The translations under genes were made by a program, and so were the position numbers. Shown here in pieces: positions 24,945 through 45,223 of a stretch of 64,000 nucleotides of DNA. Below the pieces are notes generated by a model, which did not search any database, was not told the DNA's origin, and saw nothing but the letters and a program-made list of their open reading frames with translations. The DNA is from Candidatus Heimdallarchaeota archaeon (lineage in GTDB: Archaea > Asgardarchaeota > Heimdallarchaeia > Hodarchaeales > Hodarchaeaceae), in NCBI GenBank assembly GCA_011364965.1, contig RDOB01000003.1, positions 304,939 through 368,938 on the forward strand. The letters are read 5' to 3'. Position 1 is the stretch's first letter. The number at the start of each line of letters is the position of its first letter.

Positions 24945-24959
24945 ATTTTGGATATTTAA
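24945..24959 (+). promoter_or_regulatory. Shared promoter element copy (ATTTTGGATATTTAA)
   Basis: Identical 15-mer upstream of radA; 31 nt before ATG 24990. Confidence 0.7.
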
Positions 24960-24989
24960 GAGTAACATGGTATCCTAATTAGAACAAAG

Positions 24990-25451
24990 ATGTTGTTAGG
25001 GAATTTCATTCGGGATCCAGAATGGATTAATTATGAAACTTTATTTTTCTTACTTACATTAGGAAAATATGACTCAATTTTTACTTTTAATTCTGACAAT
25101 ATTTTTATCCAAGAGTTCAGTATTTTCATAGAGAACATTAAAAGCAAGCTTGATCATATTGAAGAGATAATTAAGCAGGAAATAAGCAAATTTATTCAAA
25201 AAACTCACCAATACTCTACTGCTAGTGAAACGATGCATATTGAATTTTTACATTATGTTTCTTTACTTGATGGAAGTTTCTTAGGACTGGGATTAAGAAT
25301 GTCTACTGATGACAAATTAATGCGTTTATCTTTTGGTTATACTCCTGAGAGTAGACTTGAAAGAGCCATGTTTTTGTTATCTAGAGGAATTTTACAATCA
25401 AATTATCATTCTATCTCTCAAATTGAATATTCACTACCTATCAAGGTGTAA
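24990..25451 (+). CDS. Hypothetical protein
   Basis: 153-aa ORF, first gene of a tightly coupled three-gene unit. Confidence 0.6.
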   Translation: MLLGNFIRDPEWINYETLFFLLTLGKYDSIFTFNSDNIFIQEFSIFIENIKSKLDHIEEIIKQEISKFIQKTHQYSTASETMHIEFLHYVSLLDGSFLGLGLRMSTDDKLMRLSFGYTPESRLERAMFLLSRGILQSNYHSISQIEYSLPIKV

Positions 25452-25453
25452 TC

Positions 25454-26164
25454 ATGCAAATAATTACGCCATCTTTACTTAGATCGTACCTGGAGTGCCC
25501 ACGATTTTATTATTTATCGCATATCATGAAATTTAGTTTGGCTCCAAACAAAGAACACTTGGAAGACTCTCAGCTTGCTTTTCAAGTGAATGAACTGCTC
25601 ATCCGAAATTTATCCTTCATAATGGGCATGAATTTTAACAATCCCAATCATTTATTTGACACTGAGATCATGGAGAATCTAACTCAAAAAATTTGTCAAG
25701 CTTTTAGGTTTTTTATCAAGCACTTAACTCATAATCAGAATTTTAGTGAGCGAATTCAATATGCATTTAATAAAATGATCCAAGCCTCTGATAAATTATA
25801 TCAAGGGAGACCATCTGTATTAATTTTCTCTTCTGTTAACTCAGTAGCAATTTTTATACATACTTATAGGAATGAGTACCCTCAGTCCAGAAATTTTGGA
25901 TTCACTCAAGCTTTGATGTATGCTTATATTTTAAAATCTCACAATTATAACCCAGTTGAGTTTATTTATGTAAATTACAAGACTGGTAATTTAATTCATA
26001 AAGAAATCCAAGAAAAACACTTTAGAGAATTAGAAAAGACAACTGAAAGATTTATTCGAAATCTAGAGGAAGAGAAATTCTTACCAATTTATCATTCGCC
26101 ATGTCTATATTGTGAATTTCAAATACTTTGCGAACAAGGAGAGATATTTTATGGATTTGTTTGA
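25454..26164 (+). CDS. Cas4/AddB-like PD-(D/E)XK fold protein with 4Fe-4S cysteines and a degenerate active site
   Basis: TPSLLRSYLECPR; QALMY (QxxxY); C-terminal CLYCEFQILC; GRPS and FIHTY where G..D and DYK are expected. Confidence 0.7.
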   Translation: MQIITPSLLRSYLECPRFYYLSHIMKFSLAPNKEHLEDSQLAFQVNELLIRNLSFIMGMNFNNPNHLFDTEIMENLTQKICQAFRFFIKHLTHNQNFSERIQYAFNKMIQASDKLYQGRPSVLIFSSVNSVAIFIHTYRNEYPQSRNFGFTQALMYAYILKSHNYNPVEFIYVNYKTGNLIHKEIQEKHFRELEKTTERFIRNLEEEKFLPIYHSPCLYCEFQILCEQGEIFYGFV

Positions 26165-42342: not shown

Positions 42343-42357
42343 TTATATATTCAAAAT
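42343..42357 (-). promoter_or_regulatory. Shared promoter element copy (ATTTTGAATATATAA)
   Basis: 37 nt upstream of start 42306. Confidence 0.65.
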
Positions 42358-42399
42358 TTCTAAAACTTTGATAGAATACACTAACTTTGGAAAAAAACC

Positions 42400-45159
42400 T
42401 CAGTGATATGTATGGGAAAATAAATTATAACTTTCGTCAAGTGACACTGCTTCTCCTTTCATTATCTTCTTCAAGATGTGTTTGGCACCCAATTTATCTA
42501 ATTTTGTATTATTATGACTACAGAAAGGAAGGAATGTGCATTTAGGACAACCTGAAGGCTGCAAGCAATCACAAAGTAATAAATTGTATGCTCGTTTTAG
42601 CATCTTTTTAAGATGATAGCGAAGCATAGCACAAACTCCTGATCCATTAGGTTGATCATATAGGAGAATATAACTTTGAGGCATTAAAGCAAGTCCATTT
42701 ATCTCATTCAAATTCCCTCCAATGAAAGGAAGACTTGCATGGAGAAGAACATGAACAAGAGTATGAATAGAGGCAATTTGGTTCTGAACGTCTGTGTCCA
42801 ATTGATGTTTTTCGCTTTCAGGTATTCTAAATATTAATCCTTTTGATTTTGCAGAATAGTAAATTGGCTCCCGTAATTTATGAGCTGAAGATCCATTAGG
42901 AGTATTAAGTATAAATCCATGGACAGCTTGACGAATTTTAACTGATATATCGGCCACTTCAATATTATAAACACAATATCTATCCTCAATGTTTAGAATT
43001 TCAGGTTTTACCGAACATAAAGGGTAGGTTTGACCCCATTTTATGTGGGGTTTTGTTAAGATTGCAGTTCCTTGGAATCCGTTAAAATTAAAACTAGCAA
43101 CACGATAGCGAATGCCACCTGCATAATAAAAAGCCCCGGGATATAATTCCAACATAGCCATTGGTAGGGATCGTTTACCAATGATAGATCCTCCTCTAAC
43201 TTTAATGTGTATTTCATGGTTTTTTCCTCTAATAGAATATTGACGTGCGTGTTCTTGTCCTTTTAACGTCGGATAAAAGGGAGAATTATCTGATTGCTGT
43301 AATAATTTTTTCTCATACAATTGCTGAATAGTACTAATATGATCTGGAAACTCAGTACTCTCGAGAGGTCTATCTAAAGAGGCGCATAATAATTGATATT
43401 TGATTACAACAGGATTTCCAGGATCAAGGTAAATATCTTCAATATCATTATAGTATTGATCAGGATGCTTATAATAATAATGTGAAATTGGATCCTCAGC
43501 ATTCAGGAGTACAATTGCAAGGGCTTCCTGACCTTTCCTTCCAGCGCGCCCAATGCGTTGCATAGCCCGATTCACACTCACAGGAGGGGTGATTACAATA
43601 TCCAAATCCCCTTGATCTATTCCTAATTCATAAGTAGGTGTGGCAACAAGTATATTGAGTTTTCCTTCCCTGAAATCAGTTTCAACCTCTTGACGAATCC
43701 TTTGATCCAATCCTGCTCTATGGATTCCGATGTTATTTGCTTTACCTCCAAGTTTCTGATATAGTAATTCTGCAGCACGATGAGAATCTTGAAAAATAAG
43801 CATTTTTCCTCTTCCCTTAATCGCATTTACCAAACTATTAGTGCTATCTAATGTTGATATCCCAGCAAAAGGAGCAAGCATAAGGAAGTGCGTACGTCCC
43901 CTACGTCCCTTTTTGCACTCAATAATTTTGACCTCCCTGTTTAAAAGACGTTCTACAAATTTCTGGGGATTAGCAACAGTAGCGGAGGCGCCGATATACT
44001 GAAGTTTTTGACCAACAATGCGTTCAAGTCTTCTTAATATGAAGTGCATATTAGAACCGAATGTACCTGAATAGGAATGGATCTCGTCTAATATCACAAT
44101 TTTCAGGTTTGACAAAAGATCCTGAAACTTCTGAGAATTTTTTCCAAGCCCTAAGTGATAGTGCAGAATGTCAGGATTCGTTATGAGGATTTCGGGAGGA
44201 TCAGAAAAGATCTTTTGACGCCAATAATGTGTTGTATCACCATCAAATACCTTTATAGAGAGACCAACAGTAGAGACAACCTCCTCCAACTTACGTTTTT
44301 GATCTTTAGCAAGGGCTTTCATTGGGTAGATTATCACAATTTGTACGCCACAGTCTTTAAATCCTTGAATTTTCAATAATGAAGGAATTAAAAATGCTTC
44401 AGTCTTTCCAGTACCAGTTGGAGCTACAATGCATACATCTTGGGAATTACGAATTGCGTTAAAAGCTGAATATTGGTATTTATAGAGTTTATTAATCCCC
44501 CTCGATTTTAAAAGTGCTATTAACTTGGAATTTTCAAGGCATTCTACAATTGGTCCATATTCTCCGCTCTGTTCCTCAAATATCCGATAATCTACAATTT
44601 GATGTTGAGCATAAGAAATAACACGTTGTAATCCCAATGGGAGATCTATTGATTTTACATTGAAAAATTCCTCAAATTCAGGAAGGTTCATAATCGGACG
44701 GGGTGCAGTTTTCTTCATTTCCAGTCCATCAATAAGCCCGTATTCCTGATTCTTGGGAATTTCTTTCAACGTACCAGAATTAATCAACCTTAATTTTGTT
44801 GCTTTTTGCAAACCTGAACTATTTCCACCAGCTAAAGCATAATATTTTTGTAAACAGAATTCAGCTTTTAAATTATCTTTTATTGAAAAATAAAGAGAAG
44901 ATAAGTTCTTCCAAGTATCACGATTAGAATTATCAATAGTTAGAATACGTCCATAAGTATTCTTGGCCTCGTCAATCCTTTTCAGCTTGATAAATTGATT
45001 TGCTATCTCTGTAAGAAGACTTATCGGGGGACTTGGGTGAGTACGGAGTGCTAGGTCACATAATTCTCTAAGAAATTCTTCTTTATCCCGATTTAGTTTA
45101 TAATCTTCTAAAAGCTCACGATAACGATCCCAATAAGTTAGTTCTAGTTGATTAGTCAT
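42400..45159 (-). CDS. Hrq1/MrfA/SftH-type DEAD/H helicase with DUF1998 Zn domain and N-terminal TPR
   Basis: YQYSA, APTGTGKT, DEIH, SAT, HRAG, TYELGID, QRIGRAGR; C-terminal CDC....GCPKC. Confidence 0.9.
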   Translation of the reverse strand: MTNQLELTYWDRYRELLEDYKLNRDKEEFLRELCDLALRTHPSPPISLLTEIANQFIKLKRIDEAKNTYGRILTIDNSNRDTWKNLSSLYFSIKDNLKAEFCLQKYYALAGGNSSGLQKATKLRLINSGTLKEIPKNQEYGLIDGLEMKKTAPRPIMNLPEFEEFFNVKSIDLPLGLQRVISYAQHQIVDYRIFEEQSGEYGPIVECLENSKLIALLKSRGINKLYKYQYSAFNAIRNSQDVCIVAPTGTGKTEAFLIPSLLKIQGFKDCGVQIVIIYPMKALAKDQKRKLEEVVSTVGLSIKVFDGDTTHYWRQKIFSDPPEILITNPDILHYHLGLGKNSQKFQDLLSNLKIVILDEIHSYSGTFGSNMHFILRRLERIVGQKLQYIGASATVANPQKFVERLLNREVKIIECKKGRRGRTHFLMLAPFAGISTLDSTNSLVNAIKGRGKMLIFQDSHRAAELLYQKLGGKANNIGIHRAGLDQRIRQEVETDFREGKLNILVATPTYELGIDQGDLDIVITPPVSVNRAMQRIGRAGRKGQEALAIVLLNAEDPISHYYYKHPDQYYNDIEDIYLDPGNPVVIKYQLLCASLDRPLESTEFPDHISTIQQLYEKKLLQQSDNSPFYPTLKGQEHARQYSIRGKNHEIHIKVRGGSIIGKRSLPMAMLELYPGAFYYAGGIRYRVASFNFNGFQGTAILTKPHIKWGQTYPLCSVKPEILNIEDRYCVYNIEVADISVKIRQAVHGFILNTPNGSSAHKLREPIYYSAKSKGLIFRIPESEKHQLDTDVQNQIASIHTLVHVLLHASLPFIGGNLNEINGLALMPQSYILLYDQPNGSGVCAMLRYHLKKMLKRAYNLLLCDCLQPSGCPKCTFLPFCSHNNTKLDKLGAKHILKKIMKGEAVSLDESYNLFSHTYH

Positions 45160-45189
45160 TTGTTATTCGAACAATATTACTTAGCTTGG

Positions 45190-45223
45190 TTAAATACTCG
45201 AAAATTTGATTTCGAGTATATAA
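45190..45223. promoter_or_regulatory. Back-to-back pair of the shared promoter element forming a perfect 10-bp inverted repeat (ATACTCGAAA-6nt-TTTCGAGTAT)
   Basis: Minus copy TTTTCGAGTATTTAA (45190-45204) lies 31 nt before the helicase ATG; plus copy ATTTCGAGTATATAA (45209-45223) precedes the luxE-like gene. Confidence 0.7.

What the first reader, a model, noticed from the sequence alone, without database searches (positions are those of the whole stretch)
24945..45223. Unannotated 15-bp promoter element (wTTTYGRRTATWTAA) marks nearly every transcription unit of a DNA repair/recombination island
Seen: ATTTTGGATATTTAA at 24945(+) and 34743(+, radA); CTGTCGAGTATATAA at 34696(-); ATTTCTGATATATAA at 39947(-); TTTATGAATATAAAA at 39983(+); ATTTTGAATATATAA at 42343(-); TTTTCGAGTATTTAA at 45190(-); ATTTCGAGTATATAA at 45209(+). 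A ninth copy lies at 14667(-). All are intergenic, on the sense strand, 31-75 nt before a start codon, and three are exactly 31 nt away. Three divergent gene pairs each carry back-to-back copies. The 3' half is a TATA box. The BRE position is T-rich (TTTYGRR), unlike the purine-rich BRE-TATA at housekeeping promoters here (GAACCTTTAAAT 11267, AAAAAATATTTATT 12909, GAAAGCTATTTATA 50875). Known parallels are the Sulfolobales damage response (TFB3, Orc1-2 binding ANTTTC); two copies contain ANTTTC. Inference: a regulon read by an alternative TFB or a dedicated activator, possibly an Asgard SOS-like or competence-like programme.
Basis: partly seen in the sequence, partly recalled or inferred. Interest (0 to 1): 0.9.

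Follow-up and report, generated by a model that had tools for sequence, protein, structure and literature searches.

The report
Shared promoter of an Asgard recombination regulon
A 40-base promoter design with an unusual T-rich word just before the TATA box heads nearly every transcription unit of a conserved recombination and DNA-repair gene cluster, and also the RPA gene elsewhere, in one genus of Hodarchaeales-type Asgard archaea, so these genes are probably switched together by a reader protein that is still unknown.

Summary
All nine copies sit at the stated coordinates, intergenic, sense-oriented, 31-75 nt before start codons.

- **Architecture:** the element is a full promoter. Positions 1-17 read ATTTYGAATATWTAAGS, positions 25-30 read GGAATC, and positions 38-39 read GA. 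This fits BRE, TATA, proximal element and initiator if transcription starts at position 38.
- **Enrichment:** a matrix built only from relatives gives 13 hits of at least 18 bits in this 2.97-Mb genome, against 0 in a reversed-genome control. Eight lie in the window. Others precede RPA, a relocated 865-aa cluster gene and a second Ig-like protein.
- **Conservation:** the motif is kept at the same orthologous promoters in 13 syntenic loci and recurs in all 22 genomes searched of this genus, where the top hits examined mostly precede the same genes. It is essentially not found in 39 genomes of other families of the class.
- **Specificity:** histone, thermosome, EF1A-like, TBP, TFB and Orc1 promoters lack it.

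So a lineage-specific regulon is well supported. A genus-specific TFB paralogue exists but was not found in two good genomes that keep the motif.

The scan has reported analogous, differently worded boxes in other Asgard genomes. No paper describing this one was found.

The parts
14643..14681 (-). Promoter copy 9, an orphan. The 15-mer ATTTTGAATATATAA is at 14667-14681, followed by GGTATC and TGAGG. It is followed by a GAGGT Shine-Dalgarno-like site and a 51-aa ORF (14632-14477).
   Evidence: Exact match. Scores 27.0 bits with the matrix built from relatives only and 26.5 bits with model R1. The downstream DNA is not conserved in the genus and has no Rfam match.
24945..24983 (+). Promoter of the unit 153-aa gene (24990), PD-(D/E)XK-like gene (25454) and 296-aa gene (26151).
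   Evidence: Scores 25.3 bits. Orthologous promoters in L005, L009 and L013 keep the motif. Pfam PDDEXK_1.
34672..34710 (-). Promoter of the minus-strand operon: 1594-aa Ig-repeat protein, 204-aa YdjM-like, 350-aa, 146-aa and 233-aa AAA_24-like genes (34642 down to 27060).
   Evidence: Scores 20.6 bits. The motif is kept in L001-L010 at the same place. Pfam results.
34743..34781 (+). Promoter of the island radA (34832-35839), probably read through into the XPD-like gene (35960/35963-37696).
   Evidence: Scores 27.9 bits. Kept in 13 loci and in further genus genomes. Rad51 Pfam E 3e-70.
39923..39961 (-). Promoter of the 104-aa zinc-type protein and the Hef-like 622/630-aa protein (39902 down to 37693).
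   Evidence: Scores 19.5 bits. Orthologous sites. Hef matches: PDB 1wp9 E 5e-5 and NCBIfam Hef nuclease E 4e-21, below its cut-off.
39983..40021 (+). Promoter of the 166-aa PD-(D/E)XK-fold protein and the 162-aa TPR/zinc-ribbon-like protein (40028-41041).
   Evidence: Orthologous sites. Fold evidence.
42319..42357 (-). Promoter of the 416/422-aa protein of unknown family (42306/42288 down to 41038).
   Evidence: Scores 24.1 bits. Orthologous sites.
45166..45204 (-). Promoter of the 919-aa MrfA/YprA-type helicase (45159 down to 42400).
   Evidence: Scores 17.2 bits. PDB 6znp E 5e-66. Pfam DEAD, Helicase_C and MZB.
45209..45247 (+). Promoter of the LuxE-like and LuxC genes, possibly with the 112-aa and HEAT-repeat genes (45292 to about 49329).
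   Evidence: Scores 22.3 bits. Pfam results.

Best explanation
**What it is (shown).** The element is the shared core promoter of a lineage-specific regulon. It is about 40 bp long, asymmetric and of fixed geometry.
- Positions 1-8 carry a T-rich word (ATTTYGAA) in the BRE position.
- Positions 9-16 carry a TATA box of the TATAWAAG type.
- Positions 25-30 read GGAATC.
- Positions 37-39 read T-G-A.

**What it heads (shown).** It heads eight transcription units of a conserved recombination/repair cluster, plus a ninth orphan site at 14667(-). The units contain a divergent RadA paralogue with an XPD-like helicase, a Hef-like protein, a MrfA-type helicase, PD-(D/E)XK-like proteins, an AAA_24-like ATPase, a giant Ig-repeat surface protein operon and a LuxE/LuxC pair. 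Elsewhere in the genome it heads the RPA large subunit, a relocated 865-aa cluster gene and a second Ig-like protein.

**How it works (inferred).** These genes are transcribed as one programme. The T-rich word, with its GAAT core, is the specificity determinant. It is read by a dedicated sequence-specific DNA-binding regulator. That regulator acts at the BRE/TATA junction together with the single TBP and a general TFB. It could be an activator, as Orc1-2 is on the Sulfolobales damage-response element, or a promoter-occluding repressor. The trigger is most likely DNA damage or a DNA-exchange state.

The regulon claim alone I put at about 0.85. The stated confidence is for the regulon plus this kind of reader.
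For: **Site statistics**
- Six exact matches against 0.03 expected.
- Ten exact matches genome-wide, six in the window.
- With the relatives-only matrix, 13 hits of at least 18 bits against 0 in the reversed genome.

**Architecture**
- A logo of 36 sites has information only at positions 1-17, 25-30 and 38-39, and none upstream of position 0.
- Columns 16-41 were never used to pick the sites.

**Conservation at orthologues**
- Scores are 11-20 bits at first genes of units in L001-L013.
- Scores are mostly below 7 bits at internal operon genes and at the neighbouring GIY-YIG and 483-aa genes.

**The motif follows the gene**
- The 865-aa gene has no motif of its own where it lies between radA and XPD (L002, L009, L010, L011).
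- It carries a top-scoring copy where it is relocated: G000 C12:424552, and G010, G003 and G007.
- RPA orthologues in most of the 16 genus loci examined carry TTTATGAATATAWAA with the downstream elements.

**Taxonomic range**
- Model R1 gives hits at E<=1 in all 22 genomes of the genus that were searched, often clustered on the same contig. Most of the 30 best hits examined precede radA, RPA, 865-aa, 416-aa, 1594-aa or helicase genes.
- At E<=0.01 it hits 17 of 21 genus genomes, against 2 of 39 genomes of other families.

**Not the general promoter**
- Histone, thermosome, EF1A-like, TBP, four TFB and four Orc1 promoters score -5 to 7 bits.
- The k-mer enriched upstream of genes genome-wide is AAATCTTAAA.
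- Generic TATA-like sites show no T-rich/G pattern upstream.

**A separate regulator rather than a TFB**
- There is only one TBP.
- The genus-specific TFB was not found in G011 and G015, which keep the motif.
- In the best-studied analogue, a T-rich non-palindromic element at the promoter is bound by Orc1-2, not by a TFB (PMC6061795).
- Four Orc1/Cdc6 paralogues are present.
Against: - No regulator was identified. None of the regulon proteins examined shows a recognised DNA-binding fold: the 166-aa protein is nuclease-like and the 104-aa model failed.
- None of the Orc1 or TFB genes carries the motif.
- The site has no dyad or regular repeat symmetry.
- Every conserved block coincides with a position contacted by the basal machinery (BRE, TATA, proximal element, initiator). 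That fits a specialised TFB at least as well.
- The transcription start is predicted, not mapped. No expression data could be obtained.
- The most conserved Orc1 paralogue tested is class-wide, not genus-specific.
- The general promoter consensus of this genome could not be defined sharply.
Confidence: 0.45

Rival explanations
1. Alternative-TFB regulon. The T-rich word is a variant BRE, and the GGAATC and TGA blocks are contacts of a specialised TFB paralogue. That paralogue, with the single TBP, recruits RNA polymerase to this promoter class only, in the way an alternative sigma factor does.
For: - The conserved blocks fall exactly on BRE, TATA, the two bases after TATA, the proximal element and the initiator. 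Spacing is fixed, there is no dyad, and nothing is conserved upstream.
- The genome has four TFB paralogues.
- Three of them read (I/T)TPVTIRNRFKE where the fourth has the canonical VTEVTVRNRYKE in the helix that I recall as the BRE-reading helix.
- The C9-type paralogue is genus-specific: 75-81% identity in 17 of 21 genus genomes and no comparable orthologue elsewhere. That is the same range as the motif.
- TFB-paralogue regulons are known (Sulfolobus TFB2 preprint).
Against: - The C9-type TFB was not found in G011 (96% complete, full island and motif), G015 (single-contig genome, titled a chromosome in its record), G003 or G007.
- The other two divergent paralogues also occur in families where the motif is not detected.
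- No TFB gene lies in the island or carries the motif.
- In the Sulfolobus TFB2 case the BREs of the two TFBs look similar, so strong BRE re-specification has little precedent.
Confidence: 0.3
2. It is simply the optimal general promoter of this genus, seen at a few very highly expressed genes (RadA and RPA are abundant proteins), with no dedicated regulation.
For: All conserved blocks are ordinary core-promoter positions. The proximal half of the BRE position (GAA) is purine-rich, like canonical BREs.
Against: - Genes expected to be highly expressed lack it: four histones, thermosome, EF1A-like genes and TBP score -5 to 7 bits.
- Only about 13 sites occur genome-wide, nearly all at one functional group.
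- Low-abundance-type genes carry it (helicases, nuclease-like proteins, LuxE/LuxC).
- The k-mer enriched upstream of genes is A-rich plus CTTAAA.
Confidence: 0.08
3. The copies are similar through recent duplication, or belong to a mobile element or provirus with its own promoters. They are not under selection as a regulon.
For: The sites are strongly clustered in one 30-kb stretch. Many island genes have no family assignment.
Against: - The cluster is syntenic across species with 30-80% protein identity, while only the functional blocks of the promoters stay conserved and the spacers are free.
- Sites also occur at RPA and other loci on other contigs.
- GC content equals that of the rest of the window.
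- No integrase, capsid or repeat borders were seen in the Pfam scans.
Confidence: 0.03

Closest known systems
Sulfolobales DNA-damage-responsive element (ANTTTC within AATAGTTTCRGWDTACTCWS), bound by Orc1-2 (PMC6061795)
   Same: A short, T-rich, non-palindromic word in the core-promoter region (23-55 nt before the ATG) marks a set of DNA-damage and DNA-exchange genes, including surface structures (ups pili, ced). Here a T-rich word at the BRE position marks recombination genes plus giant surface proteins. Orc1/Cdc6 paralogues are present.
   Different: - Only the TTTC core is shared, and the rest of the 20-bp consensus does not align.
- ANTTTC occurs in only some copies.
- The target genes are different: radA, RPA, XPD, Hef-like and MrfA here, against ups, ced and tfb3 there.
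- Orthology of any local Orc1 to Orc1-2 was not tested, and none carries the motif.
- Induction by damage is untested.
TFB-paralogue regulons (Sulfolobus acidocaldarius TFB2, bioRxiv 10.64898/2026.09.06.749720; Sulfolobus TFB3 and haloarchaeal TFB families, recalled from my own knowledge)
   Same: Extra TFB paralogues (2-5 per genome in this genus) and a promoter class confined to a functional gene set.
   Different: In the TFB2 case the BRE and TATA look like those of TFB1 and differ only in spacing. Here the BRE-position word is very distinct. The best-fitting paralogue is not found in every genome that has the motif.
Promoter-overlapping archaeal repressor boxes (for example the aCcr1 box of Sulfolobales, as cited)
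   Same: A conserved box at or next to the TATA box of a functionally coherent gene set, often in several copies per divergent intergenic region.
   Different: As I recall, aCcr1 boxes are short palindromes bound by a small dimeric repressor. This element is asymmetric and includes the TATA box itself.
Bacterial SOS box / LexA and Deinococcus RDRM / DdrO (recalled from my own knowledge)
   Same: One cis-element upstream of the recombinase gene, the single-strand-binding protein gene and repair helicase genes.
   Different: Those are palindromic operators of dimeric repressors in bacterial promoters. No LexA-like or DdrO-like protein, and no palindrome, was seen here.

Membership tests
Archaeal core promoter (BRE-TATA-proximal element-initiator) | An A/T-rich 8-bp TATA box, sense-oriented, at a plausible distance upstream of the first gene of a unit | tested here: met
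   TATWTAAG lies at positions 9-16 of every copy. The copies lie 31-75 nt before start codons, only before first genes of units or before a candidate small ORF.
Archaeal core promoter (BRE-TATA-proximal element-initiator) | Transcription starts about 25 nt downstream of the TATA centre, at a pyrimidine-purine step | not testable with these tools
   A conserved T-G-A at positions 37-39 fits, but no reads could be obtained.
Archaeal core promoter (BRE-TATA-proximal element-initiator) | A purine/A-rich BRE directly upstream of TATA | tested here: not met
   Positions 1-5 are ATTTY. Only positions 6-8 (GAA) are purine-rich. Housekeeping examples and the enriched k-mer are A-rich.
Sulfolobales DDRE / Orc1-2 regulon | ANTTTC hexamer in the promoter | tested here: inconclusive
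   By my reading of the sequences, the hexamer is present at 39947(-) and 45190(-) and absent from most other copies. The shared core is only TTTC/TTTT, and the 20-bp consensus does not align.
Sulfolobales DDRE / Orc1-2 regulon | A non-initiator Orc1-2 paralogue that is itself part of the response | tested here: inconclusive
   There are four Orc1/Cdc6 paralogues. None has the motif upstream. The one tested is class-wide. Clade assignment was not done.
Sulfolobales DDRE / Orc1-2 regulon | Induction by UV or NQO | not testable with these tools
   The organism is an uncultivated MAG and no expression data could be reached.
Alternative-TFB regulon | An additional TFB paralogue with an altered BRE-reading helix | tested here: met
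   There are four TFBs. Three have (I/T)TPVTIRNRFKE against VTEVTVRNRYKE in the fourth. The assignment of the helix rests on my recollection of TFIIB/TFB structures.
Alternative-TFB regulon | The paralogue co-occurs with the promoter class | tested here: inconclusive
   The C9-type is in 17 of 21 genus genomes and none outside the genus. It was not found in G011 (96% complete), G015 (single-contig genome), G003 or G007, which have the motif.
Regulon (co-regulated gene set sharing a cis-element) | The element is conserved upstream of orthologues and absent from unrelated genes | tested here: met
Regulon (co-regulated gene set sharing a cis-element) | Co-expression of the members | not testable with these tools
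   No transcriptome access.

The most novel reading that the evidence does not exclude
Hodarchaeales-type archaea run a dedicated, switchable recombination programme.

- **Promoter:** it has its own core-promoter class, read by a specialised initiation factor or a BRE-binding activator.
- **Gene set:** it drives a lineage-specific second Rad51/RadA-type recombinase, RecA-fold accessory proteins, Hef/FANCM-like, XPD-like and MrfA/Hrq1-like helicases, RPA and giant Ig-repeat surface proteins.
- **Meaning:** this would be an inducible DNA-exchange or mating-like recombination state in a group that I recall as the reported closest archaeal relatives of eukaryotes.
- **Wider pattern:** the BRE-position word has co-evolved with its reader between Heimdall families. 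That is suggested by the differently worded boxes this scan reported elsewhere, which I did not check.
Probability: 0.15. Interest if true: 0.85.

Novelty: new variant of a known kind. Interest (0 to 1): 0.62.

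Why it matters
How Asgard archaea regulate transcription is almost entirely unknown, and I found no paper describing a DNA-repair or recombination regulon or its cis-element in them.

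This element gives a concrete, testable handle:
- a defined list of about a dozen target units;
- natural controls, namely an operon-internal gene that gains its own copy when it is relocated.

It also ties many genes of unknown family, and a giant surface protein operon, to recombination. It shows that the RadA in this cluster is an extra, genus-restricted paralogue. That bears on how recombination machinery diversified near the origin of eukaryotes.

Tried and rejected
- **De novo motif search.** My own EM over 1832 upstream regions drifted to composition signals and gave no general promoter model.
- **tRNA upstream regions.** Only 20 tRNAs were found, and their upstream regions were uninformative.
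- **General TATA-to-AATC spacing, and BRE profile around generic TATA-like words.** No clear signal. The general consensus is therefore described only through the enriched k-mer AAATCTTAAA and single examples.
- **Rigid IUPAC pattern with fixed spacing on two single-contig relatives.** Barely above control, because relatives use TTTCTAG-type variants. I replaced it with the sequence-only model R1.
- **High-scoring hit at C13:4061(-).** It lies inside the 3' end of an opposite-strand gene, so I treated it as chance. The C1:93719 hit is also genic.
- **C14:199923.** This site is 147 nt before a UbiA gene and remains unexplained.
- **865-aa protein.** Atlas features point to HerA/TrwB-type P-loop proteins, but I found no Walker A or B by pattern. 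It has no Pfam, NCBIfam or PDB sequence match. I left it as unknown.
- **416-aa protein.** Nothing in PDB or the Atlas.
- **104-aa zinc-type protein.** The structure model was unusable, with pLDDT 45.
- **Hef-like protein in family f3.** Not found with this query, so I could not link this regulon to the TTTAGCT box reported earlier by the scan.
- **16S rRNA gene.** Not in the assembly, so the rRNA promoter could not serve as a control.
- **Motif upstream of TFB and Orc1 genes.** None found.

Full report
**Observation**

- Six match WTTTYGRRTATWTAA exactly, against 0.03 expected in dinucleotide-preserving shuffles. The other three differ at one or two positions.
- Each copy is intergenic and points toward a start codon 31-75 nt away. 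Three are exactly 31 nt away.

The pattern was written after the sites were seen, so I looked for independent support.
- In the whole 2.97-Mb assembly (16 contigs, 87% complete) there are only ten exact matches. Six lie in this window, which is 2% of the genome.

**Organism and context**

The record titles of the closest RadA loci name Hodarchaeota, Heimdallarchaeota and Promethearchaeota MAGs. The window is therefore from a Hodarchaeales/Heimdall-type Asgard archaeon.

Genes behind the copies:

| Gene (window coordinates) | Assignment | Evidence |
|---|---|---|
| 34832-35839 | RadA/Rad51-type recombinase | Pfam Rad51, E 3e-70 |
| downstream of radA | XPD/Rad3-like helicase | |
| 37693-39585 | Hef-like protein | PDB 1wp9 E 5e-5; NCBIfam Hef E 4e-21, below cut-off |
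| 42400-45159 | 919-aa helicase, MrfA/YprA type | PDB 6znp, E 5e-66 |
| 25454-26164 | PD-(D/E)XK-like protein | |
| 40028-40528 | 166-aa protein with nuclease-like fold | pLDDT 77; weak matches to NucS, Hjc and Cas4-type folds |
| 27060-27761 | AAA_24-like ATPase | just below Pfam cut-off |
| 29858-34642 | 1594-aa Ig-repeat protein, in an operon with a YdjM-like membrane protein | |
| 45292-48199 | LuxE-like and LuxC pair | |

Several other genes have no family.

**The element is longer than 15 bp**

I aligned 36 copies from this genome and from syntenic loci of relatives. Information is present at three blocks only:
- positions 1-17 (ATTTYGAATATWTAAGS);
- positions 25-30 (GGAATC, with AAT the firmest);
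- positions 38-39 (GA, usually after T).

There is nothing upstream of position 0 and nothing in the spacers.

If transcription starts at position 38, the blocks fall at -37 to -30, -29 to -22, -13 to -8 and -1 to +2. Those are the BRE, TATA, proximal-element and initiator positions of an archaeal promoter, as I know them from the established literature. This start site is inferred, not mapped.

The three copies 31 nt from a start codon would then give leaders of about 8 nt. The downstream blocks were never used to select the sites, so their conservation is independent evidence.

**Conservation at orthologous promoters**

The cluster is syntenic in 13 loci fetched through RadA, with protein identities of 25-82%.
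- Within 200 nt upstream of each orthologue, first genes of units score 11-20 bits with the 15-mer matrix. These are the 153-aa gene, the 1594-aa gene, radA, the 104-aa gene, the 166-aa gene and the 416-aa gene.
- Internal operon genes (XPD, Hef-like, AAA_24-like) and the neighbouring GIY-YIG and 483-aa genes mostly score below 7.
- The divergent partner copy next to radA is kept too, at spacings that vary from 25 to 47 bp. Each copy is therefore an independent, asymmetric unit.

**The motif follows genes, not position**

I built a 41-column matrix from the relatives' sites only and scanned this genome. It gave 13 hits of at least 18 bits, against none in the reversed genome. Eight are window copies.

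The others:
- C12:424552, directly before an 865-aa gene;
- C16:36763, 31 nt before the RPA large subunit (Pfam OB folds and Rep_fac-A_C);
- C4:46976, before a second Ig-like (Big_13) protein;
- C14:199923, unexplained;
- two sites inside genes, which I regard as chance.

The 865-aa gene is a natural experiment.
- In L002, L009, L010 and L011 it sits between radA and XPD with no motif of its own.
- In this genome, and in G010, G003 and G007, it has moved elsewhere and carries its own high-scoring copy.

RPA orthologues in most of the 16 loci of this genus that I examined have TTTATGAATATAWAA followed by the AATC/TATC and TGA blocks.

**Range**

A sequence-only Infernal model of 56 sites (A1, R1) found hits at E<=1 in all 22 genomes of the GTDB genus that were searched, often clustered on one contig.
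- I examined the 30 best hits, six of which had no downstream ORF. Most of the rest precede radA, RPA, the 865-aa, 416-aa and 1594-aa genes, or additional DEAD-box helicases.
- At E<=0.01 the model hits 17 of 21 genus genomes. It hits only 2 of 39 genomes from six other families of the class, one hit each, which is near chance.

That comparison doubles as a negative control on similarly A+T-rich relatives. The model was trained on this genus, so diverged versions elsewhere would be missed.

**Not the general promoter**

- The promoters of four histone genes, the thermosome, two EF1A-like genes, TBP, four TFB genes and four Orc1/Cdc6 genes score -5 to 7 bits.
- The k-mer most enriched in the sense orientation upstream of genes is AAATCTTAAA, an A-rich stretch before a CTTAAA-type box.
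- Generic TATA-like words show only a slight A excess upstream and no T-rich/G pattern.

I could not derive a sharp general consensus. The contrast is therefore qualitative.

**Who reads it**

There is one TBP and four TFB paralogues.
- One TFB has the canonical VTEVTVRNRYKE in the C-terminal helix-turn-helix. From memory of TFIIB/TFB-DNA structures, that helix reads the BRE. The other three have (I/T)TPVTIRNRFKE.
- The C9-type paralogue is genus-specific: 75-81% identity in 17 of 21 genus genomes and no comparable orthologue outside. That matches the range of the motif.
- It was not found, however, in G011 (96% complete, full island and motif), G015, G003 or G007. G015 is a single-contig genome that I equate with record CP070760.1, titled a chromosome.
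- The other divergent TFB types occur in families without the motif.

Four Orc1/Cdc6 paralogues exist. None has the motif, and the one I tested is conserved class-wide.

No regulon protein showed a recognisable DNA-binding fold. The best small candidate, a 104-aa zinc-type protein, could not be modelled.

I give a dedicated regulator acting at the BRE/TATA junction a modest edge (0.45) over a specialised TFB (0.30).
- For the regulator: regulon-specific boxes next to TATA are usually factor sites in archaea, and the one range-matched TFB fails the co-occurrence test.
- For the TFB: the strict coincidence of every conserved block with basal-machinery contacts keeps that model alive.

**Comparison with what is known**

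The closest analogue is the Sulfolobales damage-response element. It is a T-rich, non-palindromic ANTTTC core within a 20-bp consensus, 23-55 nt before the ATG of ups, ced and tfb3, and it is bound by Orc1-2 (PMC6061795). The likeness here is limited to a TTTC core, the promoter position and the gene category. The consensus does not align further, and the targets differ.

TFB-paralogue regulons (Sulfolobus TFB2) are the other analogue. There the BREs look alike, unlike here.

I found no paper on an Asgard promoter class or repair regulon.

Earlier notes of this scan, which are unchecked leads, report comparable boxes in other genomes:
- TTTAGCT before the TATA box in another Heimdall family, linking XPD, Hef and surface genes;
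- a T-rich BRE class with its own TFB in a Lokiarchaeial island.

I could not connect those to this genus, because the Hef-like query found nothing in family f3.

**Verdict**

It is a lineage-specific regulon promoter.

Noticed in passing
window 34832-35839; also G000 C9:375045-376157, C13:1757-2776(-), C14:20120-21148(-): The genome has four full-length RadA/Rad51-type genes. The island copy is only 41-43% identical to the other three, which are 56-70% identical to each other. The island type is found at 72-83% identity in 16 of the 21 other genus genomes searched and at about 53% in family f2. Other families showed at most one hit, at about 45%.
   Followed up: partly
window 35939-36110: The XPD-like gene really begins at 35960/35963 with ATA (IIDSNLPPALQL aligns with MIDTNLPPALQL of L006). 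Its Walker A (HAPVGFGKT) lies upstream of the first ATG at 36101. This means a non-canonical start, a start-codon mutation or an assembly error.
   Followed up: partly
window 14477-14681 (-): The best-scoring promoter copy has no long gene behind it. It is followed only by a GAGGT site and a 51-aa ORF, within a 1-kb gap without long ORFs. The DNA is not conserved in the genus and has no Rfam match.
   Followed up: partly
G000 C12:424592-427189 (L040:592-3189): The 865-aa regulon gene has no Pfam, NCBIfam or PDB match. Atlas features resemble HerA/TrwB-type P-loop proteins, but no Walker A or B was found by pattern. It may be an inactive ATPase fold.
   Followed up: partly
G000 C9:46618-47604(-): A genus-specific TFB paralogue with a C-terminal extension. 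It has 75-81% identity in 17 of 21 genus genomes and no comparable orthologue in other families.
   Followed up: partly
G000 C13:92504-94576: The single TBP gene is the divergent neighbour of the TFB type found in every genus genome. This is probably the housekeeping pair.
   Followed up: no
G000 C14:20120-23194 and C9:369924-376157: Two of the four Orc1/Cdc6 paralogues lie next to or near RadA paralogues. On C14 they form a divergent pair. These may be origin-proximal arrangements.
   Followed up: no
window 45190-45223: The helicase and LuxE promoters form a perfect 10-bp inverted repeat (ATACTCGAAA ... TTTCGAGTAT), made of two back-to-back copies. A fatty-acyl reductase pair (LuxE/LuxC) is thus co-marked with repair genes.
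   Followed up: partly
window 40028-40528: The 166-aa protein is conserved (52-61% identity) with invariant RIDLA ... EAE and CDxCYLxCP motifs. It is predicted to have a PD-(D/E)XK nuclease-like fold.
   Followed up: yes
G000 genome-wide upstream regions: AAATCTTAAA is the 8-10-mer most skewed to the sense strand upstream of genes. It is a candidate general BRE-TATA of this genome. GGTGA and GAGGT peak 10-20 nt before starts, as Shine-Dalgarno sites would.
   Followed up: partly
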